Counted from the first letter of the stretch, positions 43,558 through 61,255 are shown. The stretch: 64,000 bases of DNA from a virus (IMGVR_UViG_3300045988_159113); one strand, 5' to 3'. Notes: generated by a model from the letters alone, not told the origin. Made by a program: numbers and translations.

Positions 43558-44373
43558 ATGTTTAGCAAAACGCTGGTGGGACAAATTGCCCGAATCAGAA
43601 AAGGCTGCTCTCACTCGTCTGGGATCAGTCAAGCAGCGGACAATATGATAACGTACCTGTTATTATCTAAGGATAGCAAGAGTTGCTACGCTTTAGATAT
43701 AACATGGGAAAATGGGAAGACTTGTTGCCGGATGAATGTCGACACCATCGCAACAGATATGACAATAAATGAGGTAAGAGCTATCAACTCAATGATACGA
43801 GAGTGCGTTGAGGGTATGCTTTGTCCTGTTTCTGTTATAGAAACCACAATATATTTTGGAGGTCATGCTTATTTCATTCAGGACGGCATCATCTATCAGG
43901 ATGATAAACAGTTTGTAGGTCCTTGGTTCAAGTTAGGTGATATGCTGAATGATTGGATGGAAAAGCGACCGTTCACTATTACTCCAAACGGCAACATGTT
44001 TCAACTTGTAGTTGGTGACACTTCGGAAGTCAAGGCGGCGAATAAGGTATGCATAAACGGATCGTTTTATAAAACCATCAACTTTGACCTTGCCAAGTCT
44101 CTCCCATGTTATACTAAGTTTATGACATTCCAGATTCCGGAAAATGACGGTCGGTTTATTCCATATTGCCACAATAAGGTTGAACTCTTGCGTGTATTGC
44201 ACAACATCAATAACTACGAAGACGTAGATATGCGAGATTACAAATTCGAGAATGGCAAATGGGAGATAACAGAACGCGTGCTTTCGCGACTGTATGAAAG
44301 AGTCATCGGTTCTTCGGAAGTGTCAAATGTTGAAGACATCAAAAAAGTCATAAGATTTTTAGATAATGTTTAA
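43558..44373 (+). CDS. family F, divergent member F1
   Basis: Similar to F2. FENGKWEIT...VSNVEDIKKVIRFL tail. Confidence 0.5.
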   Translation: MFSKTLVGQIARIRKGCSHSSGISQAADNMITYLLLSKDSKSCYALDITWENGKTCCRMNVDTIATDMTINEVRAINSMIRECVEGMLCPVSVIETTIYFGGHAYFIQDGIIYQDDKQFVGPWFKLGDMLNDWMEKRPFTITPNGNMFQLVVGDTSEVKAANKVCINGSFYKTINFDLAKSLPCYTKFMTFQIPENDGRFIPYCHNKVELLRVLHNINNYEDVDMRDYKFENGKWEITERVLSRLYERVIGSSEVSNVEDIKKVIRFLDNV

Positions 44374-45193
44374 GCTGTATCTATTATCTCAGGATAATAC
44401 CGAGATGTACAATGCATACGTAACCTTCAACAATGACAGAACTGACGTTAGAATTTATAGGTGTCAGAATGTGTTAAGCTTCGCCGAAGTTTTACAACAC
44501 AATATAGAAGTCAAATGTCTTGAAAGGATACTGTGCCCTATTTACTTCTATGCCAATCATTGGATTTTTGGGGGCTATAATTATGAAATTTTACATGGTA
44601 ATACTTATAAAGATAGAATCACTGGACCTCCCTGTTGGATGGCTGCACAGAACATAGCGACAGAAGCTTCTAAGTTTCTCGCCTCTCTCCCGATTCGCAT
44701 AACAGCACAGAAGGTAGACTGGCCAGATGAACGCACTTTCTACTGCTTGAATATGATAGGGGCAGACGGGCGTGCAATAACTAGGACGTCATTTCCTGTT
44801 AAGTTAGCGAATGGTTATCTCACTCTGGATTTTAAAATCCCAGGAGGATACGATGACCTTATCGAACTCTTCGATCTTAAACCTATGGATGACGGGATTA
44901 TTCCAGCGTGCAAAGGAAAGGATAAGCTCCACGCTCTGCTCAAAATATTAAACTCAAGAACTGAGCAAGATATTAAATGTTACCGTAAAGTGCTGACTAA
45001 ACAGTTGAAGAATGGCAAGTGGATCATTACCTCGCCAAATCCGCGTGATCTGATCGCTAGCGATATCTATAAACTGTATAGTGAGATTGTCGGCTATCCT
45101 GTGAAGAGGGGAATATCTCCTGAAGTAAACACCAAAGAAGATTTAGATAAAATTATCACATATTTAAAAGATGCCAAAATATTATCCCGGTAA
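44366..45193 (+). CDS. family F, divergent member F2
   Basis: LKNGKWIIT...VGYPVKRGISPEVNTKEDLDKIITYLKD. Same tail type as F5. Confidence 0.55.
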   Translation: MFKLYLLSQDNTEMYNAYVTFNNDRTDVRIYRCQNVLSFAEVLQHNIEVKCLERILCPIYFYANHWIFGGYNYEILHGNTYKDRITGPPCWMAAQNIATEASKFLASLPIRITAQKVDWPDERTFYCLNMIGADGRAITRTSFPVKLANGYLTLDFKIPGGYDDLIELFDLKPMDDGIIPACKGKDKLHALLKILNSRTEQDIKCYRKVLTKQLKNGKWIITSPNPRDLIASDIYKLYSEIVGYPVKRGISPEVNTKEDLDKIITYLKDAKILSR

Positions 45194-45560
45194 GTATTCG
45201 ACCGACTTATCTAACCATATCATAGACTACCTAGGGTATCAGGCGGATAAGGAACTCGAATACGCCAAACCTGAACAGTTGGAGGTTGTCAAAAAGGCAG
45301 CCGACATACTTAAAGAGATCGCACTCCAGTGTCGAGACATCAATCCTATCGTCTTCGCTATAGCGAGGATGAAAAGGAAGGATAAAATCCTAAGGATTGA
45401 CAAGGAGACAGGAGAGAAAAAATACATCAAAGTTTGGAAGAAGGAGATTTTCCCACCCGGAAACTCCGGACGCCTTACTCTTCTTGATAAGGGCAGGATT
45501 GCCTGGACCAAAGATGAAATCATCCAGGAGAACAATCATGAGTATTTTTATAAGCCATAA
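45171..45560 (+). CDS. hypothetical protein, family G member 1
   Basis: 129 aa, collinear with 45573..45962 along its whole length. Confidence 0.55.
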   Translation: MPKYYPGKYSTDLSNHIIDYLGYQADKELEYAKPEQLEVVKKAADILKEIALQCRDINPIVFAIARMKRKDKILRIDKETGEKKYIKVWKKEIFPPGNSGRLTLLDKGRIAWTKDEIIQENNHEYFYKP

Positions 45561-45572
45561 AGTCAGATAATT

Positions 45573-45962
45573 ATGTCGAAATGTTATCCAGGTAAATATT
45601 CAAGAATTTTGGCTGACCGTATCATGGGTTATCTAAGGTTTCAGTCAGACCAAGAACTTGAATGTGCCAAACCAGAGCAAATCGAACTTATCAAATGCGT
45701 CATGAGTACTCTCAGGCAAATTGCTGATCAGTGTCGATATATTGATCCTGTTATCTTTGCTATTGCGAGGATGAAAAGGAAAGGAAAAATTCTCAGGATT
45801 AACAAAGCTACTGGAGAAAGAAGGTATATCAAAATTTTGGAAAAAGAAATCTTCCCTCCTGGTGATTCTGGGAGAATCACTCTTTCTGATAAAGGTAAAA
45901 TTGCCTGGACAAAAGATGAGATTATCCAAGAAAATAATCATGAATACCTTTACAAGCCGTGA
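45573..45962 (+). CDS. hypothetical protein, family G member 2
   Basis: 129 aa tandem duplicate. Confidence 0.55.
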   Translation: MSKCYPGKYSRILADRIMGYLRFQSDQELECAKPEQIELIKCVMSTLRQIADQCRYIDPVIFAIARMKRKGKILRINKATGERRYIKILEKEIFPPGDSGRITLSDKGKIAWTKDEIIQENNHEYLYKP

Positions 45963-46174
45963 AGTATTACGCAGGAGATAGAGTCTCGCAAACTTGGTTT
46001 GAGTGGTGTGTCCGCAGTTTGAGATTTGGGTCTTGTAAACCTGAGTCTTGCCCAAACTGCAAGACATACCATGCAGCCAATGAGAAAGTCAAAAAATTGT
46101 TAAAAAGTTATATCAAAAGACAGTATGCAGGAAATGATTGTTTTGAACGGGAAGATGTTGAAAGAGGAAGCTGA
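45959..46174 (+). CDS. hypothetical Cys-containing protein
   Basis: Track ORF with a GTG start overlapping the upstream TGA. Confidence 0.3.
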   Translation: MKYYAGDRVSQTWFEWCVRSLRFGSCKPESCPNCKTYHAANEKVKKLLKSYIKRQYAGNDCFEREDVERGS

Positions 46175-46305
46175 AGAGCTTAACAGATACACTTCTCGTT
46201 TTGGCGCGTTCTGAGCGCGTTAAATTCTTCTGGTGAACAATTACACCAGAAAGACGAGATCTTCGCTCTACGAGCCAGCAAATGGCAAAAATCAGGTATT
46301 GAGAG

Positions 46306-46545: not shown

Positions 46546-46586
46546 ACTAACGAGATCATATTTTGTTAATATGAAATTCTTAGGAT

Positions 46587-47584: not shown

Positions 47585-47940
47585 AAGCAAAATATAAATA
47601 TGGAGACATTGTTTCCTTTGAACTTAATGGTGAAAAGATGCAGGGCATCGTGTACATAGTGGACCACAATGGCACGTTTGAACAAAGCACCTATCCATCT
47701 TATGACATTATGGTGAACCACATGCTGTACAAGCACATCACGGAACCGTGTGTGTCTCTTGTTCTTGCTTCACCATTTCATAATGCCAGGTATGTGTTTG
47801 ATGAGGATTTCGCTAATCGTCTCCTCTGTCTGGCTGAGAATGCTAAGGATAACTCAGTCTCAGGATTTGCTGACGAGATGATAGAAAAGGCAAAAGTCTT
47901 GATCGAGTACCAAAAACTCGCAAAGTATGGTGACCTGTAA
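47581..47940 (+). CDS. hypothetical protein
   Basis: ATG at 47581 (ATGA overlap) in track ORF 47569..47940. Confidence 0.5.
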   Translation: MKAKYKYGDIVSFELNGEKMQGIVYIVDHNGTFEQSTYPSYDIMVNHMLYKHITEPCVSLVLASPFHNARYVFDEDFANRLLCLAENAKDNSVSGFADEMIEKAKVLIEYQKLAKYGDL

Positions 47941-48787
47941 TTTTTATATCCCACTATCTGATACAAATAAATACCTCAGAATTGACTATCTCAATGCTCG
48001 TTATAGCGTAGTAGCCGGCACTATTAATTTTGATCTTTTTAGTGCTATAAACAGGATAAATTTTACAAGTTATCAACATGACTATGGCATAGCTCCTATT
48101 ATCTCCATAAACAAAAACGGAGACGTTAAGATAGGCAACGAGATATTCAACAGTATCTGGCACAATGTGCCTGGCTCTGCCCGTCAGCTTTTTGGTTGGG
48201 AGTGGACAGATGAAAGGTTCGGTGAGTATATAGTGGAGAGAATACGTCAGCTAATTTTTATACCGGCTGGTTCTCGTGATGATTTCAGACTTTGGATTGG
48301 TGATAACAGTGGACGCGTGCGCATTACTCATTTCATGGATAAGGTGACATTGATATCTATGGATGATGTTTATCTTTCTTGCATATGGAATCATTATCAT
48401 ATAGCACGGAAGGAGATATCGCGGATTATTGGCCATACATTTTCAGGCTATGTGTTTCCATTTTGTCCTTATGAAGAGACAGTCTACAAAATCATCAACT
48501 ACATAAACGAGAACTATAAGTCAGGGACTACAATCTCTGCCTCTATTGATACAGTCACGATTGGCTGCAAACAGTACGAGATAAAGCAGACAAAGAAAGG
48601 TATGTATTACCTGGCGGATTTCCCTGCTGCCGAGCATCGCGTTCTTCTCAAGTCCTATATCATCGCCCTTTTTCCTGGAAAAAGATTCGTGGGAGTATTC
48701 CCAGAATTTGAGACAAAAACAGAATTGTTAAAATTTATTAGCAGAATAAAAGATGATAGAAGATTTTCTGAAAAAAAAGATAGGTGA
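47927..48787 (+). CDS. family F member F3
   Basis: VYKIINYINENY...YEIKQTKKGMYY...GVFPEFETKTELLKFI. Confidence 0.6.
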   Translation: MVTCNFYIPLSDTNKYLRIDYLNARYSVVAGTINFDLFSAINRINFTSYQHDYGIAPIISINKNGDVKIGNEIFNSIWHNVPGSARQLFGWEWTDERFGEYIVERIRQLIFIPAGSRDDFRLWIGDNSGRVRITHFMDKVTLISMDDVYLSCIWNHYHIARKEISRIIGHTFSGYVFPFCPYEETVYKIINYINENYKSGTTISASIDTVTIGCKQYEIKQTKKGMYYLADFPAAEHRVLLKSYIIALFPGKRFVGVFPEFETKTELLKFISRIKDDRRFSEKKDR

Positions 48788-49640
48788 CATAACCGGCTTC
48801 GAGATATTCTTCAGATTTGGAGCCAGACTTTGGTTTCGATTTAATCTTATAACTGGGGAACATGAACTAGTCAATCGCGCTGATCATTGGGAAGATGCAA
48901 ATGATTTTGCTATGCGATATTACAAATATCGGTTCCTAGTAGATCCACCTATCCGCATCATTGGTGACAACAAGATACTGATGCCAAATTTCGAATACGA
49001 CACAGAAAGGAAAAAGTACAAGATAACACTGTACGATTGTGAAGAGCGAAGTTTTACAATCTATGGATTACTTGAACATCTACGTCGTCGTGTAAAGCGT
49101 CTTGTCTTTGTTCCTGTTCAATATTGCCAGTTTATCATGAACTTTGGAAATCTTCATGTGATGGCTGAGATCACGGAAACTCCACGATGGTTTCAAATAG
49201 TGTGTGATAACGACATGATACCTAAGATGTTGGAATATTACAGGATAAGAGAAACACCGCCTAATGTTCAAATCGTGGATGGATCAATGATCATAGGCGA
49301 GACTCTAGAGGATATCCTGGAATTTATTAATCAGGTAAACGCTAAGTGTTATAACATCGTAGATGTTGACATTCCAAATAAGGGCTTAACTTTCTCAATT
49401 GAAGACGATAACATTATCATCAACGGAGAGAAGTTTGAGATCAGAAAAAGCAGGATGTCAAAGTTCTATGTGCGTGGATTTGATGAAAACACCAGTCATA
49501 AGATTGCGGAGTTTTTCAAGCAACAATATCCAGACAAACGCACAACGGGAGTATTCCCGGAGTTTAAAACAAAAGAGGATTTAATAGATTTTATTTTGAA
49601 ATTAAAAGATGACTCAAATATATTTGAAAACATATCGTAG
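48753..49640 (+). CDS. family F member F4
   Basis: FEIRKSRMSKFYVRG...GVFPEFKTKEDLIDFI. Ends in TAG. Confidence 0.6.
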   Translation: MIEDFLKKKIGDITGFEIFFRFGARLWFRFNLITGEHELVNRADHWEDANDFAMRYYKYRFLVDPPIRIIGDNKILMPNFEYDTERKKYKITLYDCEERSFTIYGLLEHLRRRVKRLVFVPVQYCQFIMNFGNLHVMAEITETPRWFQIVCDNDMIPKMLEYYRIRETPPNVQIVDGSMIIGETLEDILEFINQVNAKCYNIVDVDIPNKGLTFSIEDDNIIINGEKFEIRKSRMSKFYVRGFDENTSHKIAEFFKQQYPDKRTTGVFPEFKTKEDLIDFILKLKDDSNIFENIS

Positions 49641-50394
49641 ATTACATGTCTATGATATAGAAACTGAAAAAGTCGAAATCTTCACTGGAAGGTTATCAGA
49701 CGAGGTAACAATCCGAGAGGACGAAAACAGACTTGCACCAATCAGTCCCTATATTGAGAATGTTATATCTATCTTTGGTGTAAAGTGCGCCCTTGCTGTG
49801 AGTTATAGAACAAAGGACGGAATGCGGATCAATGTACCTAGATCAAGTGCTCCGATCCGGTATCTATTCAATAAAACAGACGGCGATCCGTACATTAACA
49901 CTATCGACTTTATCCGTAAGCTTCAGAGTATTTTAAAGTATTCGTCGAAGTATTACAAATTCATTGGCTCAACTTCCATGGTAGGAAATGGCCAGCAATT
50001 CTTCAATTTGGCTAACAAAGAAGATATCAGATCAGCCAACATTAGGTACAACTATGACCAAATAAAAAATCCGTTCTGCAATTATATGCGGAAGAATTTG
50101 GTGAATGTATGGCTCGAGAGTATATCGGGTGCAATAGACAATCTTCATTTTAGGAATTTCATGACATGGTATATTCTGGAAGGAAATGTTCCTGAAGATC
50201 TGGAAATTGTCAAAACATGCCTCGGTATGTATTACATAAAATCACAGCGAGGAGTTGACCCATTCCAAGGCATACAAAACAAGTATGATTTTGTATCTGC
50301 AATTGTAGGATACAAAGTAAGAAAAGGCATCTCTCCAGAAGTGAGAACTGAAGAAGATGCCAAAGCAGTCATCGAACGTTTAAATTGTAGATAA
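49609..50394 (+). CDS. family F member F5
   Basis: IVGYKVRKGISPEVRTEEDAKAVIERL tail. Confidence 0.55.
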   Translation: MTQIYLKTYRRLHVYDIETEKVEIFTGRLSDEVTIREDENRLAPISPYIENVISIFGVKCALAVSYRTKDGMRINVPRSSAPIRYLFNKTDGDPYINTIDFIRKLQSILKYSSKYYKFIGSTSMVGNGQQFFNLANKEDIRSANIRYNYDQIKNPFCNYMRKNLVNVWLESISGAIDNLHFRNFMTWYILEGNVPEDLEIVKTCLGMYYIKSQRGVDPFQGIQNKYDFVSAIVGYKVRKGISPEVRTEEDAKAVIERLNCR

Positions 50395-51326
50395 TGGGAT
50401 TTTTTATAGCTTATAATAAAATTTACCTCGCAGAGAGTAACGGAAGGATTACCTCCCTCTTGAATATCGACGAGATAGATTTTCCGTGTACGTTCATAAA
50501 TAACGAAGTGAATTCCTATGATGAACTCAAACAGGTATTGATAGATGAGAACACAAGCCGGTTCTTTCAATATCAGCGAACGATGGGACATAAGCCAGTT
50601 TTGGAAATTGCGACCACCAAAAAGCGTAGTAGGTTTACGATTTCGTTTTATGATCAAGTGATCTATGAGGAGTTTGAAGATGGAACTATTGCGGTTGCAA
50701 ATAATCTAAGCAAGGCCGTTAGGGAAGTTTTGAATTCTTCAGATTCTATTTTCACAAAGTATCAAATACTCCTTGAGTTGTTGCCTATCAAAACGATAGG
50801 GAAATATATGTTCAGGATTGGGCGAAATGAAAATCTTAATCGTTCTATGAATGGTATGATTTACAGATACGGTGAAGCATTCTATCTTGTAGGCAGCAGG
50901 CTGACAGATTTTTTTGATGAGGCCGTTATCGCTCAGCTGCTTCTCAGAAATCAGCTCAACTATATTGACGACGGTATCTTTAAGTCCAAAATAGCCAGCG
51001 TCTACACCACAATATCTTTTATGGATTTTATCCGGGAACTCAATTCATCTATCTATCTTACCAATAGAGAAAAGATTGAATTGAACGGAGATCAAATCAT
51101 ATATGGAGACAATAAGCTTTCAATTAAGCAATCCCCGACAAACAACAAGTGGTTCATCGCTGGTCCTTTTGATCTTATCCTTAACATGTTCGGAGCAGAA
51201 ACTCGAGCTGAACTCGATGAATATATCTCAAAACAGATAGGAAAGAAAAGAAGGAATGGTGTATTTCCAAATTGTGACTCAAGGGATGAAATAATAAAAC
51301 TTGTAGAGTCATTACAAAATGAGTAA
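50394..51326 (+). CDS. family F member F6
   Basis: SIKQSPTNNKWFIAG...GVFPNCDSRDEIIKLV. Confidence 0.6.
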   Translation: MGFFIAYNKIYLAESNGRITSLLNIDEIDFPCTFINNEVNSYDELKQVLIDENTSRFFQYQRTMGHKPVLEIATTKKRSRFTISFYDQVIYEEFEDGTIAVANNLSKAVREVLNSSDSIFTKYQILLELLPIKTIGKYMFRIGRNENLNRSMNGMIYRYGEAFYLVGSRLTDFFDEAVIAQLLLRNQLNYIDDGIFKSKIASVYTTISFMDFIRELNSSIYLTNREKIELNGDQIIYGDNKLSIKQSPTNNKWFIAGPFDLILNMFGAETRAELDEYISKQIGKKRRNGVFPNCDSRDEIIKLVESLQNE

Positions 51327-53333: not shown

Positions 53334-54340
53334 ATACATTAAAATACTGGTATTATTCCAAGAAGCAAAAGACATTTGCTTTTCTTGGATTCCCGTCTAT
53401 TGATGATTCACATATCTCACGTGTACAATTTCCAATTACTATTTCTGATTCTTCTGGGCCTCACAGGTTCACTAACGAGAATGCACTTGTTTCTTATTGT
53501 GCTGAGCACAACCGACAAGTAGAGAAAGAGTACGAGGAAACATTCAAAATAGAACCTCCATATCTCTTACAGCCATATATTGATTACGATGGCAGTATGA
53601 CGTATTATGTTTATTACAGAGATCGTGAGCTTGTATTTGAAGATATGCATGTCATTCCTAAGCTTAACAAAGACATTTGGAATACTGTGGAAGATGCTCC
53701 TATTTACGAATTTCTTAGAAGGCATCGCGGTCAACTGTTTGATTCTGCGATGATGACACAGTTTCACAAGTTCGCGCTGGCGAATGAAGTGTTCTCTCCA
53801 TGTCATGCGACCTTTGGACGTGTTAGGTTTGCAGTGAAGCTAGGGGATCGCATAAGTATTGCAGAAGTTTGTGGACGTCTTAGCAGAGAAGACCCTTGCT
53901 TCTTGAACTTTGACAGCAAAGCAGAGTCAAACAAAGAGGTTTTCGAGTATTACAACATATCACGAGAATATCTTTCCAATCTCTTCCACATCGATACAAC
54001 AGGAGATTGGCCGTACTCTGCAAAACAAACAGTGTATGACATCATCAATTACATAAACAGTACAAAATACGCGAACTGTTCGATACCTCAGGGAATAATT
54101 ATTCAAGGCAATGTTGTCAAGTATCAATCTGCAACATTTACCATAGAGCAAACTAAAAACTCAAAGTGGTATTTGTGCGGTGATATTAATAGCATCCTTG
54201 AAATGTTCGGGCTCGATAGCAAAGATAAGCTAAGAACATATGTGAATAGTATTCTCGGAGAGAAGAAAAGATCCGGAATCTTTCCTGAATGTGAAACAAG
54301 AGAGGAAATCAAGAAACTCATAACATCAATAACAACATGA
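53330..54340 (+). CDS. family F member F9
   Basis: LKYWYYSKK...FHKFALAN...IINYINSTKYAN...TKNSKWYLCGD...GIFPECETREEIKKLI. Confidence 0.65.
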   Translation: MNTLKYWYYSKKQKTFAFLGFPSIDDSHISRVQFPITISDSSGPHRFTNENALVSYCAEHNRQVEKEYEETFKIEPPYLLQPYIDYDGSMTYYVYYRDRELVFEDMHVIPKLNKDIWNTVEDAPIYEFLRRHRGQLFDSAMMTQFHKFALANEVFSPCHATFGRVRFAVKLGDRISIAEVCGRLSREDPCFLNFDSKAESNKEVFEYYNISREYLSNLFHIDTTGDWPYSAKQTVYDIINYINSTKYANCSIPQGIIIQGNVVKYQSATFTIEQTKNSKWYLCGDINSILEMFGLDSKDKLRTYVNSILGEKKRSGIFPECETREEIKKLITSITT

Positions 54341-55347
54341 ACAATTTTGCATATTATGTATATAACGACATCAATAATTGTGTTTATAGTCTTGATCTTT
54401 TAAGTGAGACAGTAACCAAGTCGCTTGATTTTTGGATTAATACTCATACTGGATATCATTTTTTCCATGAAATATTTAATTCAAAACCCGAGCTTTTGAG
54501 ATGTCTGAATGATATGAATCAGGCAACGGCTAATTCATACACTAGGACATTTTTGATAGATCCGCCGTATTACGTAAAGCAGTCATGGCAGCCAGTAACG
54601 AACATATTGTCAACTCGTATAACAGCCTATAATATGACCTGTACATTCATTGCAGAAGGAGGAGGTCCTACTGGTTGTGAAAATGGCACGGAGTTCGAGA
54701 AGTTTCTTTTTATGAATAGAGAAAAGCGTTTCGATATTTATTATCTTGCACGCATTCATAAGTTTCTTATCAAATCTAAAATTGTTAGACCAGTTGTGAA
54801 TGATGGGAGAGCCTTGCCTAGGTTAATTGACGATATACTGTTCAATGTTGCCCTTGGTACTGGTGATACAACAACAGCAAAGATTGATAAATTCAGTGGG
54901 TTTTTCCTCAACCTCAAAGGTTGTACTAATGACCAGATCTTCAAGACTTACGGAATAGAAAAAGCAAGTCTTCAAAGATTCCTGACTAAGCCAATGGTCG
55001 CTACTCAGTATTGGCCAGAGGACACGCTGGATTCATTGGCTAAGATTATCAACTATATCAACAACAACTTCTACGCTTTTTGCGGTCCGAAAACAACATT
55101 GTCAATTTCTGGTAATGAAATTATGTTTTTCGGAACTTCTCTTTTCGTTTCACAATTGAAGAATGGGAAGTGGTACATCAAAGGTGATATGGAAAAGATA
55201 TGTCAGCTGTTTGGTGTATCCACTTGTGTAGAGCTTAGGCGTTTTGTTGATAGAACACTTGGGGAGAAAATACGCCATGGTATATTTCCCGAGTGTGATT
55301 CGAGAGATGAGATTTTTAAATTACTAGATAAAGTGAAAAATGTCTGA
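54337..55347 (+). CDS. family F member F10
   Basis: IHKFLIKS...IINYINNNFYAF...LKNGKWYIKGD...GIFPECDSRDEIFKLL. Confidence 0.65.
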   Translation: MNNFAYYVYNDINNCVYSLDLLSETVTKSLDFWINTHTGYHFFHEIFNSKPELLRCLNDMNQATANSYTRTFLIDPPYYVKQSWQPVTNILSTRITAYNMTCTFIAEGGGPTGCENGTEFEKFLFMNREKRFDIYYLARIHKFLIKSKIVRPVVNDGRALPRLIDDILFNVALGTGDTTTAKIDKFSGFFLNLKGCTNDQIFKTYGIEKASLQRFLTKPMVATQYWPEDTLDSLAKIINYINNNFYAFCGPKTTLSISGNEIMFFGTSLFVSQLKNGKWYIKGDMEKICQLFGVSTCVELRRFVDRTLGEKIRHGIFPECDSRDEIFKLLDKVKNV

Positions 55348-56323
55348 TTTAAAATATCTATATTATTCAATTAAACAAGGGAAGCTTCTAGCTCTTTATC
55401 TTGAAGATGGAAAGTTTGACCTTTACCCTGTAAGATTTCCGTTTGAATTTGAATCGAAAACTTTTTCTGGTCCAACTGGACTTGTTCTTTTTTGTGAAAG
55501 TTATAACAAAACAACAGCGAAGAAGTACAGGAAGCTTTACGGAATCAAACCACCATATGTTCTTCATACTTATATTGGTATCGGAGGAGAAGTTGTGTGT
55601 TTATTTACTTTTCACGGGAACAAATTGTCTGTTACTGATGGATTGGACTTTCCAAAATTAAACACTACAATTTGGAATCAGGAAATTGATGCGCCACTTG
55701 ATAACTTCTGCAAACAACACCAAGACAAAATGTTCAACTTGTCGGCAGTGATTGCATTTCACAGGTTCTTCATTGATAGCATGGTTATCGCACCGATAGG
55801 TCCCGGCTATTTTAATGCAAAACTTGACGGGATTATTTATCATACTGAGATAAGAGCAGATTCAGATTTTTGGTATCTGTATTTTTCAAATTCTCTATCA
55901 AACGATCATATCTTTGAGTATTATAATATACCAAAAGATGAAGTTTTGGAAGTGATAAACCAAAAGCATTGGGCTGGGGCTTGGCCAGAGTCAAGTAAAG
56001 AAAACCTGTTCAAACTTATTGATTATATCAACAGAAGGTACTATGCAAATTTTGTATACGAGAGTTTTAAGATCACGGAAAATTCTATCGTGTCCAATTT
56101 TGGATGTTTGGATTTCAAGCAGAACAAGAAGAGTGGCGGCTGGTTCCTATCCGGGAATATGAATGTCATTCTCGCTTTGTTCAAACTTGAATCTATAGGA
56201 GATTTGAAAGCTCGTGCGAATGAAATTCTCGGAAAACAAAAACGAAGTGGTATTTTCCCAGAATGTGATTCGAAAACAGAACTCATTGCACTCATAAAAA
56301 CAATTAAAGATGAACGCAGATAA
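55340..56323 (+). CDS. family F member F11
   Basis: GIKPPY...LIDYINRRYYANF...GIFPECDSKTELIALI. Confidence 0.65.
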   Translation: MSDLKYLYYSIKQGKLLALYLEDGKFDLYPVRFPFEFESKTFSGPTGLVLFCESYNKTTAKKYRKLYGIKPPYVLHTYIGIGGEVVCLFTFHGNKLSVTDGLDFPKLNTTIWNQEIDAPLDNFCKQHQDKMFNLSAVIAFHRFFIDSMVIAPIGPGYFNAKLDGIIYHTEIRADSDFWYLYFSNSLSNDHIFEYYNIPKDEVLEVINQKHWAGAWPESSKENLFKLIDYINRRYYANFVYESFKITENSIVSNFGCLDFKQNKKSGGWFLSGNMNVILALFKLESIGDLKARANEILGKQKRSGIFPECDSKTELIALIKTIKDERR

Positions 56324-57287
56324 TGTATATTATCTTTTCTATGATCAGGTAAATCAAGAATTGATAAAGCTGGATCTGTTGGAACTTTCTGACTTACCAA
56401 ACAAAACATGTTTCGTAACTTTCCCGTTTGTGCTCAATGGTAAATATGCGCACAATGGTCATGACTTGGTTAACTTAATTAACGAGTATAACGGAAGAGT
56501 CTATAACAGGTATCAGGATGAGTACAAGATCAAACCGCCGTATTTCATAAAATGTGCATATAATCAAATCGGACGTGTTGATGTTTCCATATTCTACAAG
56601 AAAAAACATTTCTTGTTTTATGATAATAAGATAAGCAATCCTGACGATTATCCTATTATTGATTCTTTCGTTTCCAAGCATAAGTCTCTACCATTCTGCG
56701 GTGTCTATATGAAGAAACTTCATGAGTTCATTATGGATAACCAAATCGTGCGCCCAAATCCAAAACCAGGAGGCATTTATTTCAATGTTGTGATAAAGGG
56801 CAAGATTTACAAGGCTTATATTTGTAAAGAAAGTACCGATCATTGTTTTCTCTCTTTCCCATTAACAGGAAACAGATATGCCTTTGATTGTTATAATATA
56901 AGCGAGGAAGAAGTGTTGAATGTTCTTGGTATCAATGAGTGGCAAGGTGATTGGCCTGAAACACCAGAAAGAAAAGTGTATGTTCTGCTTGATTATATCA
57001 ACGAGAACCGTATGGCTGGACCTGTTATCGACAGGTTAAAGATAGACGGCAATAAGATCATCACATCTTTTGCTGAGTTCGAGATAAAGCAAACGAAGAC
57101 TGGCAAGTGGTATATTCGGGGAAATATTGAGCAGATATGCTTGTTGTTTAAAGTTCCTAATATTACGGAACTCAAACATCTTGTCAACAAGATAATTGGC
57201 AACAAGATACGGCACGGTGTCTTTCCGGAATGTGATTCGAGAGAAGAGGTCACGAAACTTTTAAAATCAATTAGAGATGACAGATAA
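56310..57287 (+). CDS. family F member F12
   Basis: KIKPPY...LLDYINENR...EIKQTKTGKWYIRGN...GVFPECDSREEVTKLL. Confidence 0.65.
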   Translation: MNADNVYYLFYDQVNQELIKLDLLELSDLPNKTCFVTFPFVLNGKYAHNGHDLVNLINEYNGRVYNRYQDEYKIKPPYFIKCAYNQIGRVDVSIFYKKKHFLFYDNKISNPDDYPIIDSFVSKHKSLPFCGVYMKKLHEFIMDNQIVRPNPKPGGIYFNVVIKGKIYKAYICKESTDHCFLSFPLTGNRYAFDCYNISEEEVLNVLGINEWQGDWPETPERKVYVLLDYINENRMAGPVIDRLKIDGNKIITSFAEFEIKQTKTGKWYIRGNIEQICLLFKVPNITELKHLVNKIIGNKIRHGVFPECDSREEVTKLLKSIRDDR

Positions 57288-58236
57288 GTTTTATTATCTT
57301 TTTTATGACCGTATAAACGGAAAGATAATCAGATTAGATTTGTTTAACGCTAACCTATCAATAGGCGAAGCCGTTTCTGTGATGTTTCCATGGGCAATTG
57401 ATGGGAGGCTTACACATAATGATGGCGAAGTAGTGATGGCGATCAACAAACACAACCAAAGAACATATAAACGATATATTGAGAAGTTTAAAATCAGACC
57501 TCCGTACTATATCGAAAATGTGCTCGGCGTTCGTGGTATGATCAATGCTATTGTTACTTACAAAAGTAGGTCACTTTTGCTTAAAGAGTACATGCTTGTC
57601 GACAAGTATAATGATGTCGCTCCATTCTTTGCTAAATATGACTATGCGAAGTTTAACATCTGTTATATGATAGGGCTTCACAAGTATATCTTGGACAATC
57701 AGATCATACGTCCTAGCAAACATAATAGCGGAATGTTTAGCGTCATGATACTTGGTAAAAGCTATATCGCGAATGTTGTAGTTTCACTAGATCATTGCTT
57801 CCTTAACATAGAAGGTATATCAAACGGAGCAGTCTTCAATCATTATAAAATAGGTAAATCAAAAGTCCTTGAAGTACTCAGGATAGACAAATGGTACGGA
57901 GACTGGCCAGAGACTACCGAAGACAAGGTGTACGAGTTAATCAACTATATCAACGAGTGCAGAAGCTCAAGCACTAATCCTGATAAAGTTGAGATAAGCG
58001 GAAATGAAATCATCACAGATTTTGCTAGACTTGAAATAAAGCAAAGCAAAAATGGTAAATGGTATATCAGTGGCTCGCTCGAGAATATATTGAAATTGTT
58101 TCATATTGACGACCAAGTCGAGTTGAAGCAAATGGTCAATAACCTTTTCGGATCTAAGCGACGCGCTGGTGTATTCCCTGAACTTGATTCTCGTGATGAT
58201 GTTATTAAACTAATCAAAGTAACGCAACATGAATAG
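57277..58236 (+). CDS. family F member F13
   Basis: KIRPPY...LINYINECR...EIKQSKNGKWYISGS...GVFPELDSRDDVIKLI. Ends in TAG. Confidence 0.65.
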   Translation: MTDKFYYLFYDRINGKIIRLDLFNANLSIGEAVSVMFPWAIDGRLTHNDGEVVMAINKHNQRTYKRYIEKFKIRPPYYIENVLGVRGMINAIVTYKSRSLLLKEYMLVDKYNDVAPFFAKYDYAKFNICYMIGLHKYILDNQIIRPSKHNSGMFSVMILGKSYIANVVVSLDHCFLNIEGISNGAVFNHYKIGKSKVLEVLRIDKWYGDWPETTEDKVYELINYINECRSSSTNPDKVEISGNEIITDFARLEIKQSKNGKWYISGSLENILKLFHIDDQVELKQMVNNLFGSKRRAGVFPELDSRDDVIKLIKVTQHE

Positions 58237-59281
58237 AGAAACTGATTTCTTTTATCTATTTTACAATAGAACCAACAAATACTTGGTACAGTTGGATCTG
58301 TTGAGTAATTACTCGGAGAATATATCTTGTCGAACAGTAGATGGCGATAAGTACAAGCTGTATGGCAAGTATTTCAAAGCAGAGGATGAGTTTATCCAAG
58401 CTGTTAATGATTTCAATGTGTCGATGGCTCAAAAGTATTTTAGCAAGTTCAAGATTCTTGCACCGTATAGATTAGAGTGTCAGCTCTTATTCTATATAGA
58501 CGGAGGGGCAGACTACAACATATACATCTCAACACATGACAGATGCTATCGTTTCATTTATGGCAAGGAAACGCCTGCAAACTTTATAGAATTTGCACGT
58601 ATCCGCAATATAGAGCCGGGGACTTTCAATCTTCGCTATATGCTGAACCTACATACTGCACTTTTGAACTCTGCAGTGTTCAGGGCTGGATATGACAGGG
58701 GCAAGTTCTGTTATACTGTAAACTGTGGAGAAAATTCTTTCTGTGCTCATATCGCGAAGTCAAGAGTAAGAGCTGGCTGTTATTTCCTAGCCTTTAGTCC
58801 TAATATTCCGAATGACTACGTCTTCGCGTATTACAACGTCAATAGGCAAAACATCAAGGATCTCTTGACTGTAGACTCCTGGACCGGAAAGTGGCCCGAG
58901 GATGTCGAGTCGACAATCTACGCGATCATGCAGTATATGAACAGAACATATATCGCAAATGCCAATTTTAGTTTTGTAATAGATGATGATGCTGTCATGT
59001 TCAACGGTACCAGATACCCATTCAAACAAGCAAAGAAGGGAGGCTGGTTCTTGTCTGGCAATATTGAGAAGATACTTCAGATGTTCGGTCTTGATAGTGT
59101 CGACTCATTACGTAAGACAGCGAACCTATATCTTGGAGCAAAGAACAGACCGGGAGTTTTCCCAGAATGCGACACAAAAGAAGAGTTGATAAACTTGATT
59201 AAAATGTTCAAAGATGGAGAGCGAAAAATCAAAATTTCCGGTTCTTCTGTACTTCGATCCATGCAGCCGGATGATCTATAA
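58229..59281 (+). CDS. family F member F14
   Basis: IMQYMNRTYIAN...KQAKKGGWFLSGN...GVFPECDTKEELINLI. A 19-aa tail overlaps the F15 start. Confidence 0.65.
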   Translation: MNRETDFFYLFYNRTNKYLVQLDLLSNYSENISCRTVDGDKYKLYGKYFKAEDEFIQAVNDFNVSMAQKYFSKFKILAPYRLECQLLFYIDGGADYNIYISTHDRCYRFIYGKETPANFIEFARIRNIEPGTFNLRYMLNLHTALLNSAVFRAGYDRGKFCYTVNCGENSFCAHIAKSRVRAGCYFLAFSPNIPNDYVFAYYNVNRQNIKDLLTVDSWTGKWPEDVESTIYAIMQYMNRTYIANANFSFVIDDDAVMFNGTRYPFKQAKKGGWFLSGNIEKILQMFGLDSVDSLRKTANLYLGAKNRPGVFPECDTKEELINLIKMFKDGERKIKISGSSVLRSMQPDDL

Positions 59282-60233
59282 GTTCCCGCTTATCTGGACA
59301 ACGGACATAGAACACTTGAAGTTCGAGATACTTATTGAAGAACTCGGATCAAGTACTGTATGGTTTCGTGGTATGAAATATGAGAACACGGAGGAACTCC
59401 TGCGTTTTATATCCAAAGAGAACGAGAAGACGCGTAAAAAGTATAAAGAGAAATATGGCATTTTTCCGCCATATGTTATTACTCAATGTACTTTTAACAC
59501 GACTTATTCAATTTGTATTAGAACGCACAATTGCGAAAACTATGCTGTGTTTTTATTTGAAGATGGGGAAAAGCTTCCTGAGTGTATTGCAAATGGAGAA
59601 GTTCCTGTTTTTCGCAATGCAGAAATTAAAGCTAGCGATAGGTTTAATATTAAAACACTCATCAAGTTGCATAACTCCATCGTCTCAAATTATGTAGTAC
59701 GTCCTGCGATTTATTTGGATTGTTGTGATAGGTATGTTGCAAAAATAAACGGCACGCTTTATGATGCTAGGATTGTTAGAGTTGCTGATAATACTTTCTA
59801 TTTACAGTTTTTCACGATTCCCAGCATAAAACTTTTTAAGTATTATGACATAAAGTTTACAGAATACGAGCCTATCATATCTCATGACTTCCGTTTGATG
59901 GATGGCTATATCCCTGTGGATAATAAAGAGCACATCCTAAAAATTCTTGACTTCATCAATAGTAAGCGCTGTGCTATGGAGTATGCATCGTTTACTATCA
60001 AAAGCGATACTATCCTAAGTAATGGATGTATGTTCAAGATAGTCCAAACGCCAACTGGCAAGTGGTACATAAAGGGTAAGAGTGACGACTTCCCTAAGGT
60101 GTTCAAGTGCTCAAGTATGGAGGAGATCAGAGAGTTTGCGATCAAGCTATTCGGGCGAAGGATTACTGGAGTATTCCCAGAGTGCAACACCAGGGAAGAG
60201 TTGTTAACTTTAATCGAGAAGATGAAGAAATGA
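59214..60233 (+). CDS. family F member F15
   Basis: GIFPPY...ILDFINSKR...VQTPTGKWYIKGK...GVFPECNTREELLTLI. Confidence 0.65.
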   Translation: MESEKSKFPVLLYFDPCSRMIYKFPLIWTTDIEHLKFEILIEELGSSTVWFRGMKYENTEELLRFISKENEKTRKKYKEKYGIFPPYVITQCTFNTTYSICIRTHNCENYAVFLFEDGEKLPECIANGEVPVFRNAEIKASDRFNIKTLIKLHNSIVSNYVVRPAIYLDCCDRYVAKINGTLYDARIVRVADNTFYLQFFTIPSIKLFKYYDIKFTEYEPIISHDFRLMDGYIPVDNKEHILKILDFINSKRCAMEYASFTIKSDTILSNGCMFKIVQTPTGKWYIKGKSDDFPKVFKCSSMEEIREFAIKLFGRRITGVFPECNTREELLTLIEKMKK

Positions 60234-61255
60234 TAATCCAACTTTTAGAAGAACCGACTTATCTATACTTTGACCAGATGGTGATGAAAGTCTACCAGCT
60301 GCCAATAATGCATACGATACAGTTGTCGGCTGTTGAAGTTTACAACGTACGACATCCTCAAGGCATCATGTCAATGCGCGAACGAGAAGTTGACCTATGG
60401 TTTCGAGATGCGCATTACAACACGATCGGTGATCTCTTGAAGTATATAAACAAGAGAAACGAGAGAATGTTCAAATATTACGTTGAGAAATTCGGAATTT
60501 CTCCTGCTTACTTTTTGGACCAAGAAGCTGATGCGGATAATGTAGTCATTACCACTATTGTAACACATCTCGATTCTTACCGTTTTGAATGTGATGGTCG
60601 GATAGATTATGAAATAATAGAGAAGACTATTCCCGTTTTCAGTTATGCAGACATCAAAGAAGATGACCGTTTTGGCGCAGAAGTTCTGGTGAAGATGCAC
60701 AACTCCATCATCAAAAACCAGGTGATAAAACCCACCATATACAAGAACGTTTACACCGTAAGAATGGGCGATTTGTTTGCAAAAGCAAAAATCGATACGA
60801 TGGATATAGGTAGGGTGCCTGGCTATCATTTGCATTTTCTATCTTATCATGATAGGATTGTTTTTGATTATTACCACATACGATATTCTGACTTTGCTTA
60901 TGTGATCCCTGATACCGAATTGAGTAACGGGATACCTGTTGGCCCAGAAGAAGATATCAGAAAGCTCATCAACTATATCAATATGACATATTGCGTTTGT
61001 GAGGGCTCAAAGTTTAGTGTGAATGATAATATTATCATCTGCAATAAGCACAAGCTTGAAATTACACAAACGCGAAACGGCAAATGGTATATCAAGGGTG
61101 ATGTTTTACTCGCTTTTGGGTTGGATAGTATGGAGGCAATCAGAAAGGCTGCGTCTGATCTCTTCGGTAAAAAGAGGATGAACGGAGTATTCCCGGAATG
61201 CGATTCCAAGGAAGACCTCCTGCGACTCGTTGAAGTTCTTAGAAAATACAGGTGA
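60230..61255 (+). CDS. family F member F16
   Basis: ATG at 60230 (ATGA overlap) in track ORF 60107..61255. LINYINMTY...TQTRNGKWYIKGD...GVFPECDSKEDLLRLV. Confidence 0.6.
   Translation: MIIQLLEEPTYLYFDQMVMKVYQLPIMHTIQLSAVEVYNVRHPQGIMSMREREVDLWFRDAHYNTIGDLLKYINKRNERMFKYYVEKFGISPAYFLDQEADADNVVITTIVTHLDSYRFECDGRIDYEIIEKTIPVFSYADIKEDDRFGAEVLVKMHNSIIKNQVIKPTIYKNVYTVRMGDLFAKAKIDTMDIGRVPGYHLHFLSYHDRIVFDYYHIRYSDFAYVIPDTELSNGIPVGPEEDIRKLINYINMTYCVCEGSKFSVNDNIIICNKHKLEITQTRNGKWYIKGDVLLAFGLDSMEAIRKAASDLFGKKRMNGVFPECDSKEDLLRLVEVLRKYR

What the first reader, a model, noticed from the sequence alone, without database searches (positions are those of the whole stretch)
43558..61255. Sixteen-member tandem paralog family occupying over 15 kb, with no recognisable function
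Fourteen consecutive genes (47927..61255, 13.3 kb) plus two divergent members (43558.., 44366..) encode 260-350-aa proteins with one shared architecture.
- Many members have an N-terminal (K/F)YW/LYY...L start, then K(I/L)KPPY, then LHKF(A/L)..N.
- These are followed by WPE....VY.(I/L)I(D/N)YIN...YA.
- The C-terminal module is I.GN.I...F.(I/F)KQ.K.GKWY(I/L).G, about 25 aa, then G.K.R.GVFPEC(D/E)(S/T).EE(I/V/L).KL(L/I).

From the one neighbour pair I compared by eye (F8/F9), identity is only moderate, so the duplications look old or fast-evolving. None of the genes contains TAG. I recognise no known domain. An expansion of this size in a phage resembles the multigene families of large DNA viruses. 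It suggests a diversified effector set (host takeover, counter-defence or host-range functions), but that is speculation.
Basis: seen in the sequence. Interest (0 to 1): 0.85.

Follow-up and report, generated by a model that had tools for sequence, protein, structure and literature searches.

The report
Sixteen-gene phage family, novel repeat module
A large gut phage related to crAssphage spends about 15 kb on sixteen neighbouring, related genes built from a roughly 80-residue protein module that matches no known family or fold; the genes are real and conserved, but their function is still inferred, not shown.

Summary
Sixteen + strand genes (43558-45193 and 47927-61255, about 15.0 kb) form one family:
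- Ten full-length core members (F7-F16) are 24-46% identical, with E-values from 1e-20 to 1e-100.
- Three members (F3, F4, F6) share only the C-terminal half.
- Three divergent members (F1, F2, F5) share the C-terminal module.

New findings:
- The conserved C-terminus is an independent module of about 80 aa (four short strands, three helices, a G-x-F-P-E loop).
- Core proteins carry two tandem copies of it. Unrelated phage proteins carry two to six.
- Pfam, PHROGs, NCBIfam, PADLOC, PDB sequence profiles and Foldseek (PDB, BFVD) give no significant match, although the AlphaFold models are confident.
- An exhaustive search of 1.84 billion representatives finds only 57 clusters, all unannotated.
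- Related ~117-197 kb phage contigs keep the array in the same order with one-to-one orthologs, with copy loss, one split copy and allele replacement. More distant lineages have 4-8 copies.
- dN/dS is 0.1-0.5, so the genes are functional but evolve faster than most neighbours.

The function is unknown. My best inference is a co-expressed set of non-enzymatic binding proteins made before the late phase, for host takeover or counter-defence.

The parts
43558..44373 (+). F1, the most divergent member. The ORF is 271 aa; the probable true start is the ATG at 43645, giving 242 aa.
   Evidence: BLASTP to F2 gives 3e-14 over 277 aa. The alignment shows shared 'DG.IP.C..K..L' and 'NGKW.IT...LY...G..S.EV..ED..K.I..L' motifs. 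Its orthologs are 241-244 aa.
44366..45193 (+). F2, a divergent member (275 aa) with a C-terminal GxFPE-type module ('KRGISPEVNTKEDLDKII').
   Evidence: A C-module HMM built without F2 gives 7.5e-8. The family HMM gives 1.3e-5.
47927..48787 (+). F3 (286 aa). It shares the C-terminal half (modules A and B) with the core family.
   Evidence: Family HMM gives 2.5e-22, matching profile positions 152-327. BLASTP to core members gives 1e-6 to 1e-12.
48753..49640 (+). F4 (295 aa). It shares the C-terminal half and ends in TAG.
   Evidence: Family HMM gives 3.7e-15. The stop codon is TAG.
49609..50394 (+). F5 (261 aa), a divergent member in which only the C-terminal module is recognisable.
   Evidence: C-module HMM gives 5.5e-7. 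BLASTP to F2 gives 8e-7. The L011 ortholog (38% identity) also hits F12 and F13.
50394..51326 (+). F6 (310 aa). It shares C-terminal module B strongly, and its N-terminal part is divergent.
   Evidence: Family HMM gives 8.3e-29, matching profile positions 229-326.
51319..52332 (+). F7 (337 aa), a full-length core member.
   Evidence: Family HMM gives 1.5e-118. Its ortholog identity in relatives ranges from 47 to 89%.
52320..53333 (+). F8 (337 aa), a core member.
   Evidence: Family HMM gives 7.6e-125. It is 46% identical to F9. It is split into two ORFs in L009/L010.
53330..54340 (+). F9 (336 aa), a core member and a lineage-specific duplicate of F8.
   Evidence: Family HMM gives 5.7e-125. It is absent from L001 and L008.
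54337..55347 (+). F10 (336 aa), a core member.
   Evidence: Family HMM gives 2.5e-114.
55340..56323 (+). F11 (327 aa), a core member with the clearest internal second module (residues 176-233).
   Evidence: Family HMM gives 3.6e-120. The module HMM hits residues 176-233 with i-E 2e-7.
56310..57287 (+). F12 (325 aa), the core member used for the structure model.
   Evidence: AlphaFold2 gives pLDDT 85.4 and pTM 0.72. About 69 ortholog clusters were found in metagenomes. It is absent from L009/L010.
56757..57020 (+). Module A of F12 (residues 150-237), the internal degenerate copy of the module ('...FL.F...N..F.YYNI....G.WPE...E.VY.IIDYIN').
   Evidence: hhalign of the module A alignment against the diverse module alignment A3 gives probability 96.4% and E 1.2e-9 over 70 columns. 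This is the most variable region among F12 orthologs.
57021..57284 (+). Module B of F12 (residues 238-325), the conserved C-terminal GxFPE module.
   Evidence: The module-only AlphaFold2 model has pLDDT 83.4. This region has the lowest dN/dS (0.12-0.23) and the highest paralog identity (38%).
57277..58236 (+). F13 (319 aa), a core member that ends in TAG.
   Evidence: Family HMM gives 1.7e-121. It is 43% identical to F12. The stop codon is TAG.
58229..59281 (+). F14 (350 aa), a core member.
   Evidence: Family HMM gives 2.8e-112. The distant locus L011 carries three F14-like copies.
59214..60233 (+). F15 (339 aa), a core member.
   Evidence: Family HMM gives 4.2e-112.
60230..61255 (+). F16 (341 aa from the ATG at 60230; the ORF opens at the GTG at 60107), a core member and the last gene of the array.
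   Evidence: Family HMM gives 2.4e-111, with the match starting at ORF residue 50. The ATG overlaps the F15 stop by 4 nt.

Best explanation
**What it is (shown)**
- A lineage-restricted multigene family that evolves by gene birth and death, in a roughly 190-200 kb phage distantly related to crAssphage that recodes TAG in its structural genes.
- The proteins are soluble and have near-neutral charge.
- They are built from a previously undescribed module of about 80 aa: four short beta-strands, two helices, a conserved G-x-(F/W)-P-E loop, and a final helix.
- Core members have a family-specific N-terminal region of about 145 aa followed by two tandem modules (A, degenerate; B, conserved).
- The 14 contiguous genes F3-F16 overlap one another by 1-68 nt with no intergenic gaps. 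They therefore look like one translationally coupled operon.
- They contain no in-frame TAG, whereas the structural genes carry about 2 TAG per 100 codons.

**How it most likely works (inferred)**
- The genes are expressed before the suppressor-tRNA code switch, that is, early or in the middle of infection.
- They encode a panel of non-enzymatic binding or adaptor proteins.
- The conserved module B would provide a common interaction (docking or oligomerisation).
- The fast-evolving N-terminal half and the beta-face of module A would give each paralog its own target among host factors or defence proteins. The role would be host takeover or counter-defence.

**Confidence**
- About 0.9 for the anatomy and evolution.
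- About 0.35-0.4 for the functional reading. The overall figure reflects the functional reading.
For: - **Family and tiers:**
- **Independent, repeatable module:**
  - The internal copy is detected by the module HMM (F11 residues 176-233, i-E 2e-7).
  - It is also detected by hhalign (96.4%, E 1.2e-9).
  - The module occurs six times in the 618-aa protein P0161, twice in P0174 and two or three times in P0177, all from other phage-like contigs.
- **Non-enzymatic look:**
  - Across distant modules only one Gly and one Pro are invariant.
  - Invariant positions in the core family are mostly aromatic, Gly or Pro.
  - There are no transmembrane segments, and pI is 5.4-9.1.
- **Standard-code compartment:**
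  - Ten ORFs between 1 and 22 kb carry 87 in-frame TAG in 4,511 codons, and a tRNA with anticodon CTA is present.
  - The family has 0 in-frame TAG in about 5,045 codons.
  - Recoded stops mark late structural and lysis genes in such phages (PMC10879173).
- **Operon-like packing:**
- **Functional constraint with fast evolution:**
  - Family dN/dS is 0.10-0.53, against 0.01-0.14 for six of the seven comparable neighbours; the seventh, 62157-62525, is 0.22-0.69.
  - Module B is the most constrained region (0.12-0.23). The other three regions give 0.23-0.50.
  - Variability among 69 F12 orthologs peaks at residues 150-190, while 'RHGVFPECDSREE' is nearly invariant.
- **Birth-and-death turnover:**
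  - F9 or F12 is missing in some strains, F8 is split in L009/L010, and the F7 and F11 alleles in L001 are only 47-51% identical.
  - Distant lineages carry 8, 5 or at least 4 copies, with independent duplications.
Against: - There is no direct evidence of expression timing, binding partners or phenotype.
- Early or middle timing rests only on codon usage and position. A glucosaminidase-domain gene, which would normally be a lysis-type gene, also sits in this non-recoded block just upstream of F1. Absence of TAG is therefore not proof of early expression.
- dN/dS stays below 1 in every region and gene. Positive selection, which an arms-race model predicts, is not demonstrated.
- The weak structural echoes (tandem SH2, AP2, EsaG) are all non-significant and point in different directions.
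- No match to any known anti-defence or defence family was found.
Confidence: 0.4

Rival explanations
1. The proteins are sequence-specific nucleic-acid-binding proteins, for example transcription or replication regulators or nucleoid remodellers. This would parallel the Bro/KilA-N multigene families of DNA viruses, with each paralog recognising a different site.
For: - The model contains repeated 'three strands then a helix' units.
- The weak BFVD Foldseek hits include AP2-domain and HNH/AP2 proteins.
- The last two helices, separated by an extended loop, loosely resemble a helix-extended-loop-helix motif (my own reading).
- A phage sigma factor lies 3 kb upstream.
Against: - All structural hits are non-significant (best E 0.015, probability at most 0.21, TM at most 0.28).
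- Net charge is near zero (-6 to +7), not basic.
- There is no Pfam hit to Bro-N, KilA-N, AP2 or any HTH family at E up to 1.
Confidence: 0.15
2. The proteins are packaged or ejected virion proteins, or assembly scaffolds. This would parallel the paralogous inner-body proteins of phiKZ-like jumbo phages.
For: - There are many similar-sized paralogs packed in one operon, which suggests co-production.
- Paralogous internal head proteins are known in jumbo phages (my own knowledge).
Against: - There are zero in-frame TAG codons in about 5,045 codons, while the structural genes of this phage carry about 1.9 per 100 codons.
- The array is separated from the structural block (portal and TerL within 1-5.6 kb; TAG-recoded ORFs extend to ~22 kb) and lies on the other transcriptional arm.
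- There is no PHROG structural match.
Confidence: 0.1
3. The paralogs co-assemble into a hetero-oligomeric intracellular structure, such as a compartment, scaffold or cytoskeleton-like array. Module B would be the common assembly interface.
For: - Module B is conserved in all members and is the most constrained region.
- Overlapping genes imply coupled, roughly stoichiometric synthesis.
- The module can be concatenated six times in one chain.
Against: - Individual copies are dispensable in natural strains: F9 or F12 is missing and F8 is split.
- Copy number ranges from 4 to 16 between lineages. That is hard to reconcile with a fixed architecture.
- There is no similarity to chimallin, tubulin, bactofilin or similar proteins.
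Confidence: 0.08
4. The array is evolutionary debris: duplicated genes that are decaying or untranscribed, or selfish mobile cassettes.
For: - One copy is split in L009/L010, and copies show presence/absence polymorphism.
- A TnpB (OrfB_IS605) gene lies a few kb downstream in relatives.
Against: - All 16 ORFs are intact here.
- One-to-one orthologs are kept in order across strains, with dN/dS of 0.1-0.5.
- Shared orthologs persist in a lineage only 28-41% identical.
- There are no nuclease, integrase or transposase domains.
- There are no long DNA repeats or flanking repeats.
Confidence: 0.03

Closest known systems
Multigene families of large eukaryotic DNA viruses (ASFV MGF110/360/505, poxvirus ankyrin/PRANC proteins, herpesvirus US22 family)
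   Same: - Tandem arrays of 10 or more diverged paralogs take up several per cent of the genome.
- Copy number varies between lineages, with gain, loss and pseudogenisation.
- The proteins pair a conserved module with variable regions.
- US22 proteins also carry two copies of their domain per protein (my own knowledge).
   Different: - This is a bacteriophage, not a eukaryotic virus.
- No sequence or fold similarity was detected.
- The function of those families (immune evasion, host range) is established experimentally. Here it is only inferred.
Arrays of paralogous immunity or inhibitor proteins against polymorphic toxins (SUKH superfamily; S. aureus EsaG/DUF600 arrays)
   Same: - Head-to-tail arrays of small, soluble, non-enzymatic paralogs.
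- Each is thought to neutralise a different variant of a target.
- They evolve by birth and death.
   Different: - Those arrays are bacterial chromosomal or T7SS/T6SS-linked.
- The only link here is a non-significant Foldseek hit to EsaG (E 2.3).
- No SUKH or DUF600 Pfam match was found.
Bro (baculovirus repeated ORF) / KilA-N families of DNA viruses and phages
   Same: A repeated gene family in viral genomes that combines a conserved domain with variable partner regions.
   Different: - Bro proteins have a conserved N-terminal DNA-binding domain. Here the conserved module is C-terminal.
- No Bro-N or KilA-N match was found.
SH2-like alpha+beta domains (tandem SH2 of Syk/PLCgamma; SAP; tyrosinase caddie)
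   Same: They are the top-ranked, though weak, Foldseek hits both for the full-length model and for the isolated module. Like them, the module has strands flanked by helices, and two units sit in tandem.
   Different: - The hits have E of at least 0.05, probability of at most 0.23 and TM of at most 0.34.
- There is no phosphotyrosine-pocket Arg motif.
- This is not a supported relationship.
Tandem duplicates elsewhere in the same phage (for example the phrog_7964/5070 trio at 35412-39975)
   Same: They lie in the same non-recoded + strand block and show the same habit of tandem duplication. The trio's C-terminal tail ('GKFLYV...FGEFPNRDESERIKKII') resembles the module.
   Different: hhalign gives only P 0.004 and probability 9%. 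These proteins carry a hexapeptide/bactofilin-like beta-helix that the family lacks.

Membership tests
The family itself (GxFPE-module family, defined here) | A C-terminal module of about 80 aa with a hairpin like 'G(K)W(Y/F)(I/L)', two helices, a G-x-(F/W/S)-P-E loop and a terminal amphipathic helix | tested here: met
   - Detected in F2-F16 by HMM.
- F1 shows it only by alignment to F2.
- No other window ORF matches.
The family itself (GxFPE-module family, defined here) | Core architecture: N-terminal region with the 'KIKPPY' and 'KLH.F...N' motifs, followed by module A ('WPE...YKIIDYIN') and module B | tested here: met
   - Met by F7-F16 only.
- F3, F4 and F6 have modules A and B without the core N-terminal region.
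- F1, F2 and F5 are more divergent.
Any Pfam-A, PHROGs, NCBIfam or PADLOC family | A significant profile-HMM match | tested here: not met
   - Full-length members give no hit at or above the curated cut-offs. The best is Glyco_hydro_85 for F6, at 18.6 bits against a cut-off of 22.2.
- The 25 isolated modules were scanned against Pfam and PHROGs only; no family was matched by more than one of them.
- Multi-module relatives (scanned against Pfam only) give only sub-threshold DUF7773 and DUF7780 hits.
SH2 domain fold | A significant structural superposition with SH2 domains | tested here: not met
   Foldseek against PDB gives best E 0.052, probability 0.23, TM 0.13-0.17 for the full model. For the module alone, the SH2-type hits are weaker (SAP/SH2D1A E 1.4; the overall best hit, CsdE, is E 0.88), with TM at most 0.34.
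SH3-like / WYL-type small beta-barrel | A significant sequence-profile or structural match to SH3 or WYL domains (suggested by the 'GKWYL' hairpin) | tested here: not met
   - The PDB profile search gives best E 0.065 to the Fyn and Src SH3 hairpin.
- There is no Pfam WYL or SH3 hit at E up to 10.
- The module model has only four short strands.
Bro-N / KilA-N / AP2 DNA-binding families | A profile match to the DNA-binding domain, or a significant fold match | tested here: not met
   No Pfam hits were found. AP2-domain proteins appear in BFVD only at E 0.12-0.31 with probability at most 0.08.
SUKH / DUF600 (EsaG) immunity-protein families | A profile match to SMI1_KNR4, SUKH or DUF600, or a significant fold match | tested here: not met
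   No Pfam hits were found. The EsaG structure 8gup matches only at E 2.3.
Viral multigene family evolving by birth and death (a kind, not a homology family) | A tandem array; orthologs conserved in order; lineage-specific duplications, losses and pseudogenes; purifying but relaxed selection | tested here: met
Early/middle (pre-code-switch) gene class of TAG-recoded phages | Transcription and translation before the suppressor tRNA acts | not testable with these tools
   Only indirect evidence is available: 0 in-frame TAG against about 1.9% of codons in structural genes, and the published model (PMC10879173). No expression data exist.

The most novel reading that the evidence does not exclude
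The array is a phage-encoded arsenal of inhibitors or adaptors built on a previously unknown protein fold, the GxFPE module. The module would dock onto one common host or phage machine. The diversified N-terminal and module A surfaces would each capture a different host defence or housekeeping target. This would be a bacteriophage counterpart of the host-range and immune-evasion multigene families of poxviruses, herpesviruses and ASFV, and it would define a new domain superfamily specific to large gut phages.
Probability: 0.3. Interest if true: 0.8.

Novelty: new variant of a known kind. Interest (0 to 1): 0.58.

Why it matters
- **Scale.** Tandem paralog families of this size (16 genes, about 7-8% of a genome of roughly 195 kb) are a hallmark of large eukaryotic DNA viruses, where they encode host-manipulation functions. 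They are rarely documented in phages.
- **Prevalence and lack of annotation.** This family is carried by a crAss-related phage lineage that recurs in human gut metagenomes; some protein clusters hold hundreds of member sequences. It is entirely unannotated and rests on a module with no detectable sequence or fold relatives.
- **What follows if the inferred function is right.** If the members are host-takeover or counter-defence binders, they give a ready-made panel of natural variants with mapped variable and constant regions. These could be used to probe Bacteroidota defence and physiology. The family would also show that phages use the same expand-and-diversify strategy as giant viruses.
- **What follows even without a known function.** The module definition and HMM allow these dark-matter genes to be annotated and their copy number tracked across gut viromes.

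Tried and rejected
1. **Domain databases.** Pfam, PHROGs, NCBIfam and PADLOC scans of full-length proteins gave nothing above threshold, and no family recurred across the isolated modules (scanned against Pfam and PHROGs; multi-module relatives against Pfam only).
2. **PDB sequence profiles.** Searches with the family profile and the module profile gave only chance-level hits: RPL17 at E 0.78 and SH3 at E 0.065.
3. **Foldseek.** The full-length model (PDB and BFVD) and the module model (PDB) gave no hit with E below 0.01. The SH2, AP2 and EsaG echoes were rejected as non-significant.
4. **INPHARED phages.** Megablast and tblastn with the array found no match.
5. **GTDB genomes.** The scan found no relatives, so this is not a bacterial or prophage family.
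6. **Module-profile word-index search.** It recovered only one extra protein.
7. **N-terminal sub-regions.** N1 and N2 were tested against the module by hhalign and are not related (probability below 4%). The idea of four repeats per protein therefore rests only on secondary-structure periodicity and is not claimed.
8. **Other tandem paralog families in the window.** None is significantly related to the module. The best is the phrog_7964 trio, at P 0.004.
9. **Promoter and terminator scans.** Sigma-70-type and Bacteroidetes-type promoter scans and the terminator scan gave counts no higher than in shuffled sequence.
10. **DGR-type or recent gene-conversion explanation for the variability.** There are no long DNA repeats in the array.
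11. **Literature.** Searches on paralog arrays in crAss-like or recoded phages found no description of this family.

Full report
**1. Observation**

All-vs-all BLASTP and a family HMM searched against all 483 window ORFs of at least 50 aa show one family in three tiers:
- **Core, F7-F16 (319-350 aa).** These align end to end at 24-46% identity, with pairwise E from 1e-20 to 1e-100 and HMM E from 1e-111 to 1e-127.
- **F3, F4, F6.** These share only the C-terminal 100-190 residues (HMM E from 1e-15 to 1e-29).
- **F2 and F5.** These share the last ~65-70 residues. An HMM built without them gives 7.5e-8 and 5.5e-7.
- **F1.** It is tied in through F2 (3e-14; alignment).

No other window ORF matches the family.

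Minor corrections:
- F16 probably starts at the ATG at 60230.
- F1 probably starts at the ATG at 43645, because its orthologs are 241-244 aa.
- F4 and F13 end in TAG.
- F8/F9 (46%) is the closest pair, not a typical one.
- The genes total 14,973 nt.

**2. Genomic setting**

*Genetic code.* Between 1 and 22 kb, ORFs are fragmented under the standard code and become long when TAG is read as sense. Ten such ORFs contain 87 in-frame TAG in 4,511 codons. A tRNA with anticodon CTA lies at 15045-15121.

*Phage identity.*
- With TAG read as Gln, these ORFs include a portal protein and a large terminase that is split into two ORFs (PHROG matches).
- The portal is 55-66% identical to unannotated human-faecal phage contigs. 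It is about 20-25% identical, over 70-99% of its length, to Crassvirales portals.
- Homologs of the family sit on metagenomic contigs up to 190-204 kb.
- The element is therefore a TAG-recoded phage of roughly 195 kb, distantly related to crAssphage.

*The non-recoded block.*
- From about 22 kb onward all genes read the same under both codes.
- This + strand block contains a sigma-70-family factor (40097-40774) and a glucosaminidase-domain protein just upstream of F1.
- Otherwise it holds proteins of unknown function.
- Much of it is made of tandem duplicates: six further small paralog clusters lie between 27 and 46 kb.

*Packing of the array.*
- F3 to F16 overlap one another by 1-68 nt with no intergenic space.
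- No promoter or terminator signal rises above the shuffled expectation.

**3. Anatomy of the proteins**

*Full-length model.* An AlphaFold2 model of F12, built on a 30-sequence alignment, is confident (pLDDT 85.4, pTM 0.72).

*The C-terminal module.*
- The conserved C-terminal stretch of about 85 residues folds as four short strands and two helices. An extended loop carrying G-V-F-P-E follows, and then a final helix.
- Predicted on its own, it is again confident (pLDDT 83.4).

*Evidence that it is an independent, repeatable module.*
- The exhaustive profile search turned up proteins from other phage-like contigs that consist of six copies (P0161, 618 aa). Others carry two or three copies interleaved with other sequence (P0174, P0177).
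- A module HMM finds a second, degenerate copy immediately upstream in the core proteins. In F11 it covers residues 176-233 (i-E 2e-7), and it is also found in F7, F8 and F10.
- Profile-profile comparison of that region against the diverse module alignment gives 96.4% probability and E 1.2e-9.

*Other properties.*
- The N-terminal ~145 residues (the 'KIKPPY' and 'KLH.F' motifs) show no detectable relation to the module.
- Across distant modules only one Gly and one Pro are invariant.
- Invariant positions in the core family are mostly aromatic, Gly or Pro.
- The proteins have no hydrophobic segments, and pI ranges from 5.4 to 9.1.
- Nothing suggests an active site.

**4. Comparison with known families**

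*No significant match was found by any method:*
- Pfam, PHROGs, NCBIfam and PADLOC for full-length members; Pfam and PHROGs for isolated modules; Pfam for multi-module relatives.
- PDB sequence profiles.
- Foldseek against PDB and BFVD for the full-length model. The best hits are E 0.052 to tandem SH2 in PDB and E 0.015 to an uncharacterised phage protein in BFVD, with TM below 0.3.
- Foldseek against PDB for the module model, with best E 0.88.

*Distribution.*
- The exhaustive HMM search of 1.84 billion representative proteins found only 57 clusters.
- GTDB genomes hold none, and INPHARED phages hold none.
- No protein carries a name or a Pfam domain.
- Literature searches found no description of the family.

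**5. Evolution**

*Close relatives.*
- Five IMG/VR loci and two ENA loci from related phages carry the same array in the same order, with one-to-one orthologs that are mostly 77-97% identical.
- There is turnover. F9 is missing in L001 and L008. F12 is missing in L009/L010. F8 is split in L009/L010.
- The F7 and F11 positions in L001 hold alleles only 47-51% identical, although the flanking members are 77-85% identical.

*Selection.*
- Pairwise dN/dS (NG86) is 0.10-0.53 for family genes.
- Six of the seven neighbouring non-family genes with true orthologs in the fetched loci give 0.01-0.14. The seventh, the 122-aa gene at 62157-62525, gives 0.22-0.69, within the family's range.
- Pooled by region, module B is the most constrained (0.12-0.23). 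The N-terminal regions and module A give 0.23-0.50.
- Among 69 F12 ortholog clusters, variability peaks in the beta part of module A (residues 150-190). 'RHGVFPECDSREE' is nearly invariant.

*More distant lineages.*
- L011 keeps the same downstream neighbours. It has eight members in the order F5-, F6-, F7-, F8-, F14-, F15/16-, F14-, F14-like, at 28-41% identity. This shows a shared old core plus independent duplications.
- A 178 kb contig (L013) has five short members. A 26% GC contig (L012) has at least four.

*Age of the duplications.* At the DNA level only the motif-coding stretches still align, at 60-78% identity with a period of about 1 kb. The duplications are therefore old and there is no recent gene conversion.

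**6. Interpretation**

*Shown:*
- This is a real, selected, rapidly evolving multigene family that gains and loses copies.
- Its proteins are soluble and built from a novel repeat module.
- The genes are packed as one operon-like unit in the part of a TAG-recoded genome that is read in the standard code.

*Inferred:*
- In such phages, in-frame recoded stops mark late structural and lysis genes that need the suppressor tRNA (PMC10879173). The array is therefore most likely translated before that switch.
- Three features fit a panel of binding or adaptor proteins. There is a constant module that can be concatenated. There are variable surfaces elsewhere in the protein. There are no catalytic signatures.
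- Such a panel would be directed at diverse host targets, for takeover or counter-defence.
- I put about 0.35-0.4 on this reading.

*Rivals:*
- Nucleic-acid-binding regulators (0.15).
- Packaged or scaffold proteins (0.10). The TAG statistics argue against this.
- A hetero-oligomeric intracellular assembly (0.08). The dispensable copies argue against this.
- Junk or selfish DNA (0.03). This is essentially refuted by the conserved orthologs and dN/dS below 1.

*Caveats:*
- Positive selection is not demonstrated.
- The presence of a glucosaminidase gene in the same non-recoded block shows that absence of TAG does not by itself prove early expression.

**7. Verdict**

The kind of thing, a viral multigene family, is known. 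Its scale in a phage and its apparently novel module make it a new variant worth experimental follow-up. Interest is 0.58.

Noticed in passing
window 1-22042 and 15045-15121 (-): The structural-gene block is TAG-recoded. Ten ORFs carry 87 in-frame TAG in 4,511 codons and become long only when TAG is read as sense. A suppressor-type tRNA with anticodon CTA lies at 15045-15121. From about 22 kb onward no gene needs recoding.
   Followed up: partly
window 3113-4447 (-) and 4606-5595 (-): The large terminase is split into two ORFs in different frames about 158 nt apart. PHROG 6681 profile positions 49-308 and 332-734 map to the two pieces. This could be a small intron, a frameshift or an assembly error. 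Rfam found no intron family there.
   Followed up: partly
window 27319-45962 (+): There are six further tandem paralog clusters:
- 27319, 29688 and 32094
- 33484 and 34348
- 35412, 36179 and 39118 (phrog_7964/5070)
- 37365, 37950 and 38531
- 40771 and 41388
- 45171 and 45573

The whole non-recoded block is dominated by tandem duplicates.
   Followed up: partly
window 35412-37060 and 39118-39975 (+): The phrog_7964/5070 trio has a hexapeptide/bactofilin-like beta-helix region. Its C-terminal tail ('GKFLYVKSKDRFFGEFPNRDESERIKKII') resembles the GxFPE module, but hhalign gives only P 0.004 and probability 9%.
   Followed up: partly
window 40097-40774 (+): A phage-encoded sigma-70-family factor (phrog_351, E 1.4e-46) lies about 3 kb upstream of F1. 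As far as I know, this is unusual for crAss-like phages, which typically rely on their own giant RNA polymerase.
   Followed up: no
window 43089-43544 (+): A 151-aa protein with a glucosaminidase domain (PF01832, E 1.7e-15) and a hydrophobic N-terminus lies immediately upstream of F1, in the non-recoded block. It is a lysis-type enzyme without recoded stops.
   Followed up: no
window 49638-49640 and 58234-58236: F4 and F13 terminate with TAG, the codon that is read as sense in the structural genes. With TAG read through they would gain only 5 and 3 residues.
   Followed up: yes
window 52341-52366 and 53339-53364: An exact 26-nt repeat (TTAAAATACTGGTATTATTCCAAGAA, encoding LKYWYYSKK) is shared by the 5' ends of F8 and F9. 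It is the only exact DNA repeat of 20 nt or more reported within the array.
   Followed up: no
L009 and L010 6004-7018: The F8 ortholog is split into two overlapping ORFs (242 and 129 aa). This is either a frameshifted pseudogene or a sequencing error. The same two loci lack F12.
   Followed up: partly
L001 14620-15849; L002 8728-9957; L011 16145-16696: A TnpB-like gene (OrfB_IS605 plus Cas12f1-like_TNB) sits a few kb downstream of the array in related phages. It is full-length in L001 and L002 and truncated in L011.
   Followed up: no
L013 17696-20647; also L001 18603-18917 and L011 19459-20103: Downstream of the array, relatives carry a cluster of Peptidase_C26, COOH-NH2 ligase and glutamine amidotransferase genes. 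From my own knowledge, this resembles phage DNA-base hypermodification cassettes.
   Followed up: no
L004 1239-3095: A 618-aa protein (P0161) consists of six tandem GxFPE modules and little else. It lies in a contig of small same-strand ORFs typical of a phage early region.
   Followed up: partly
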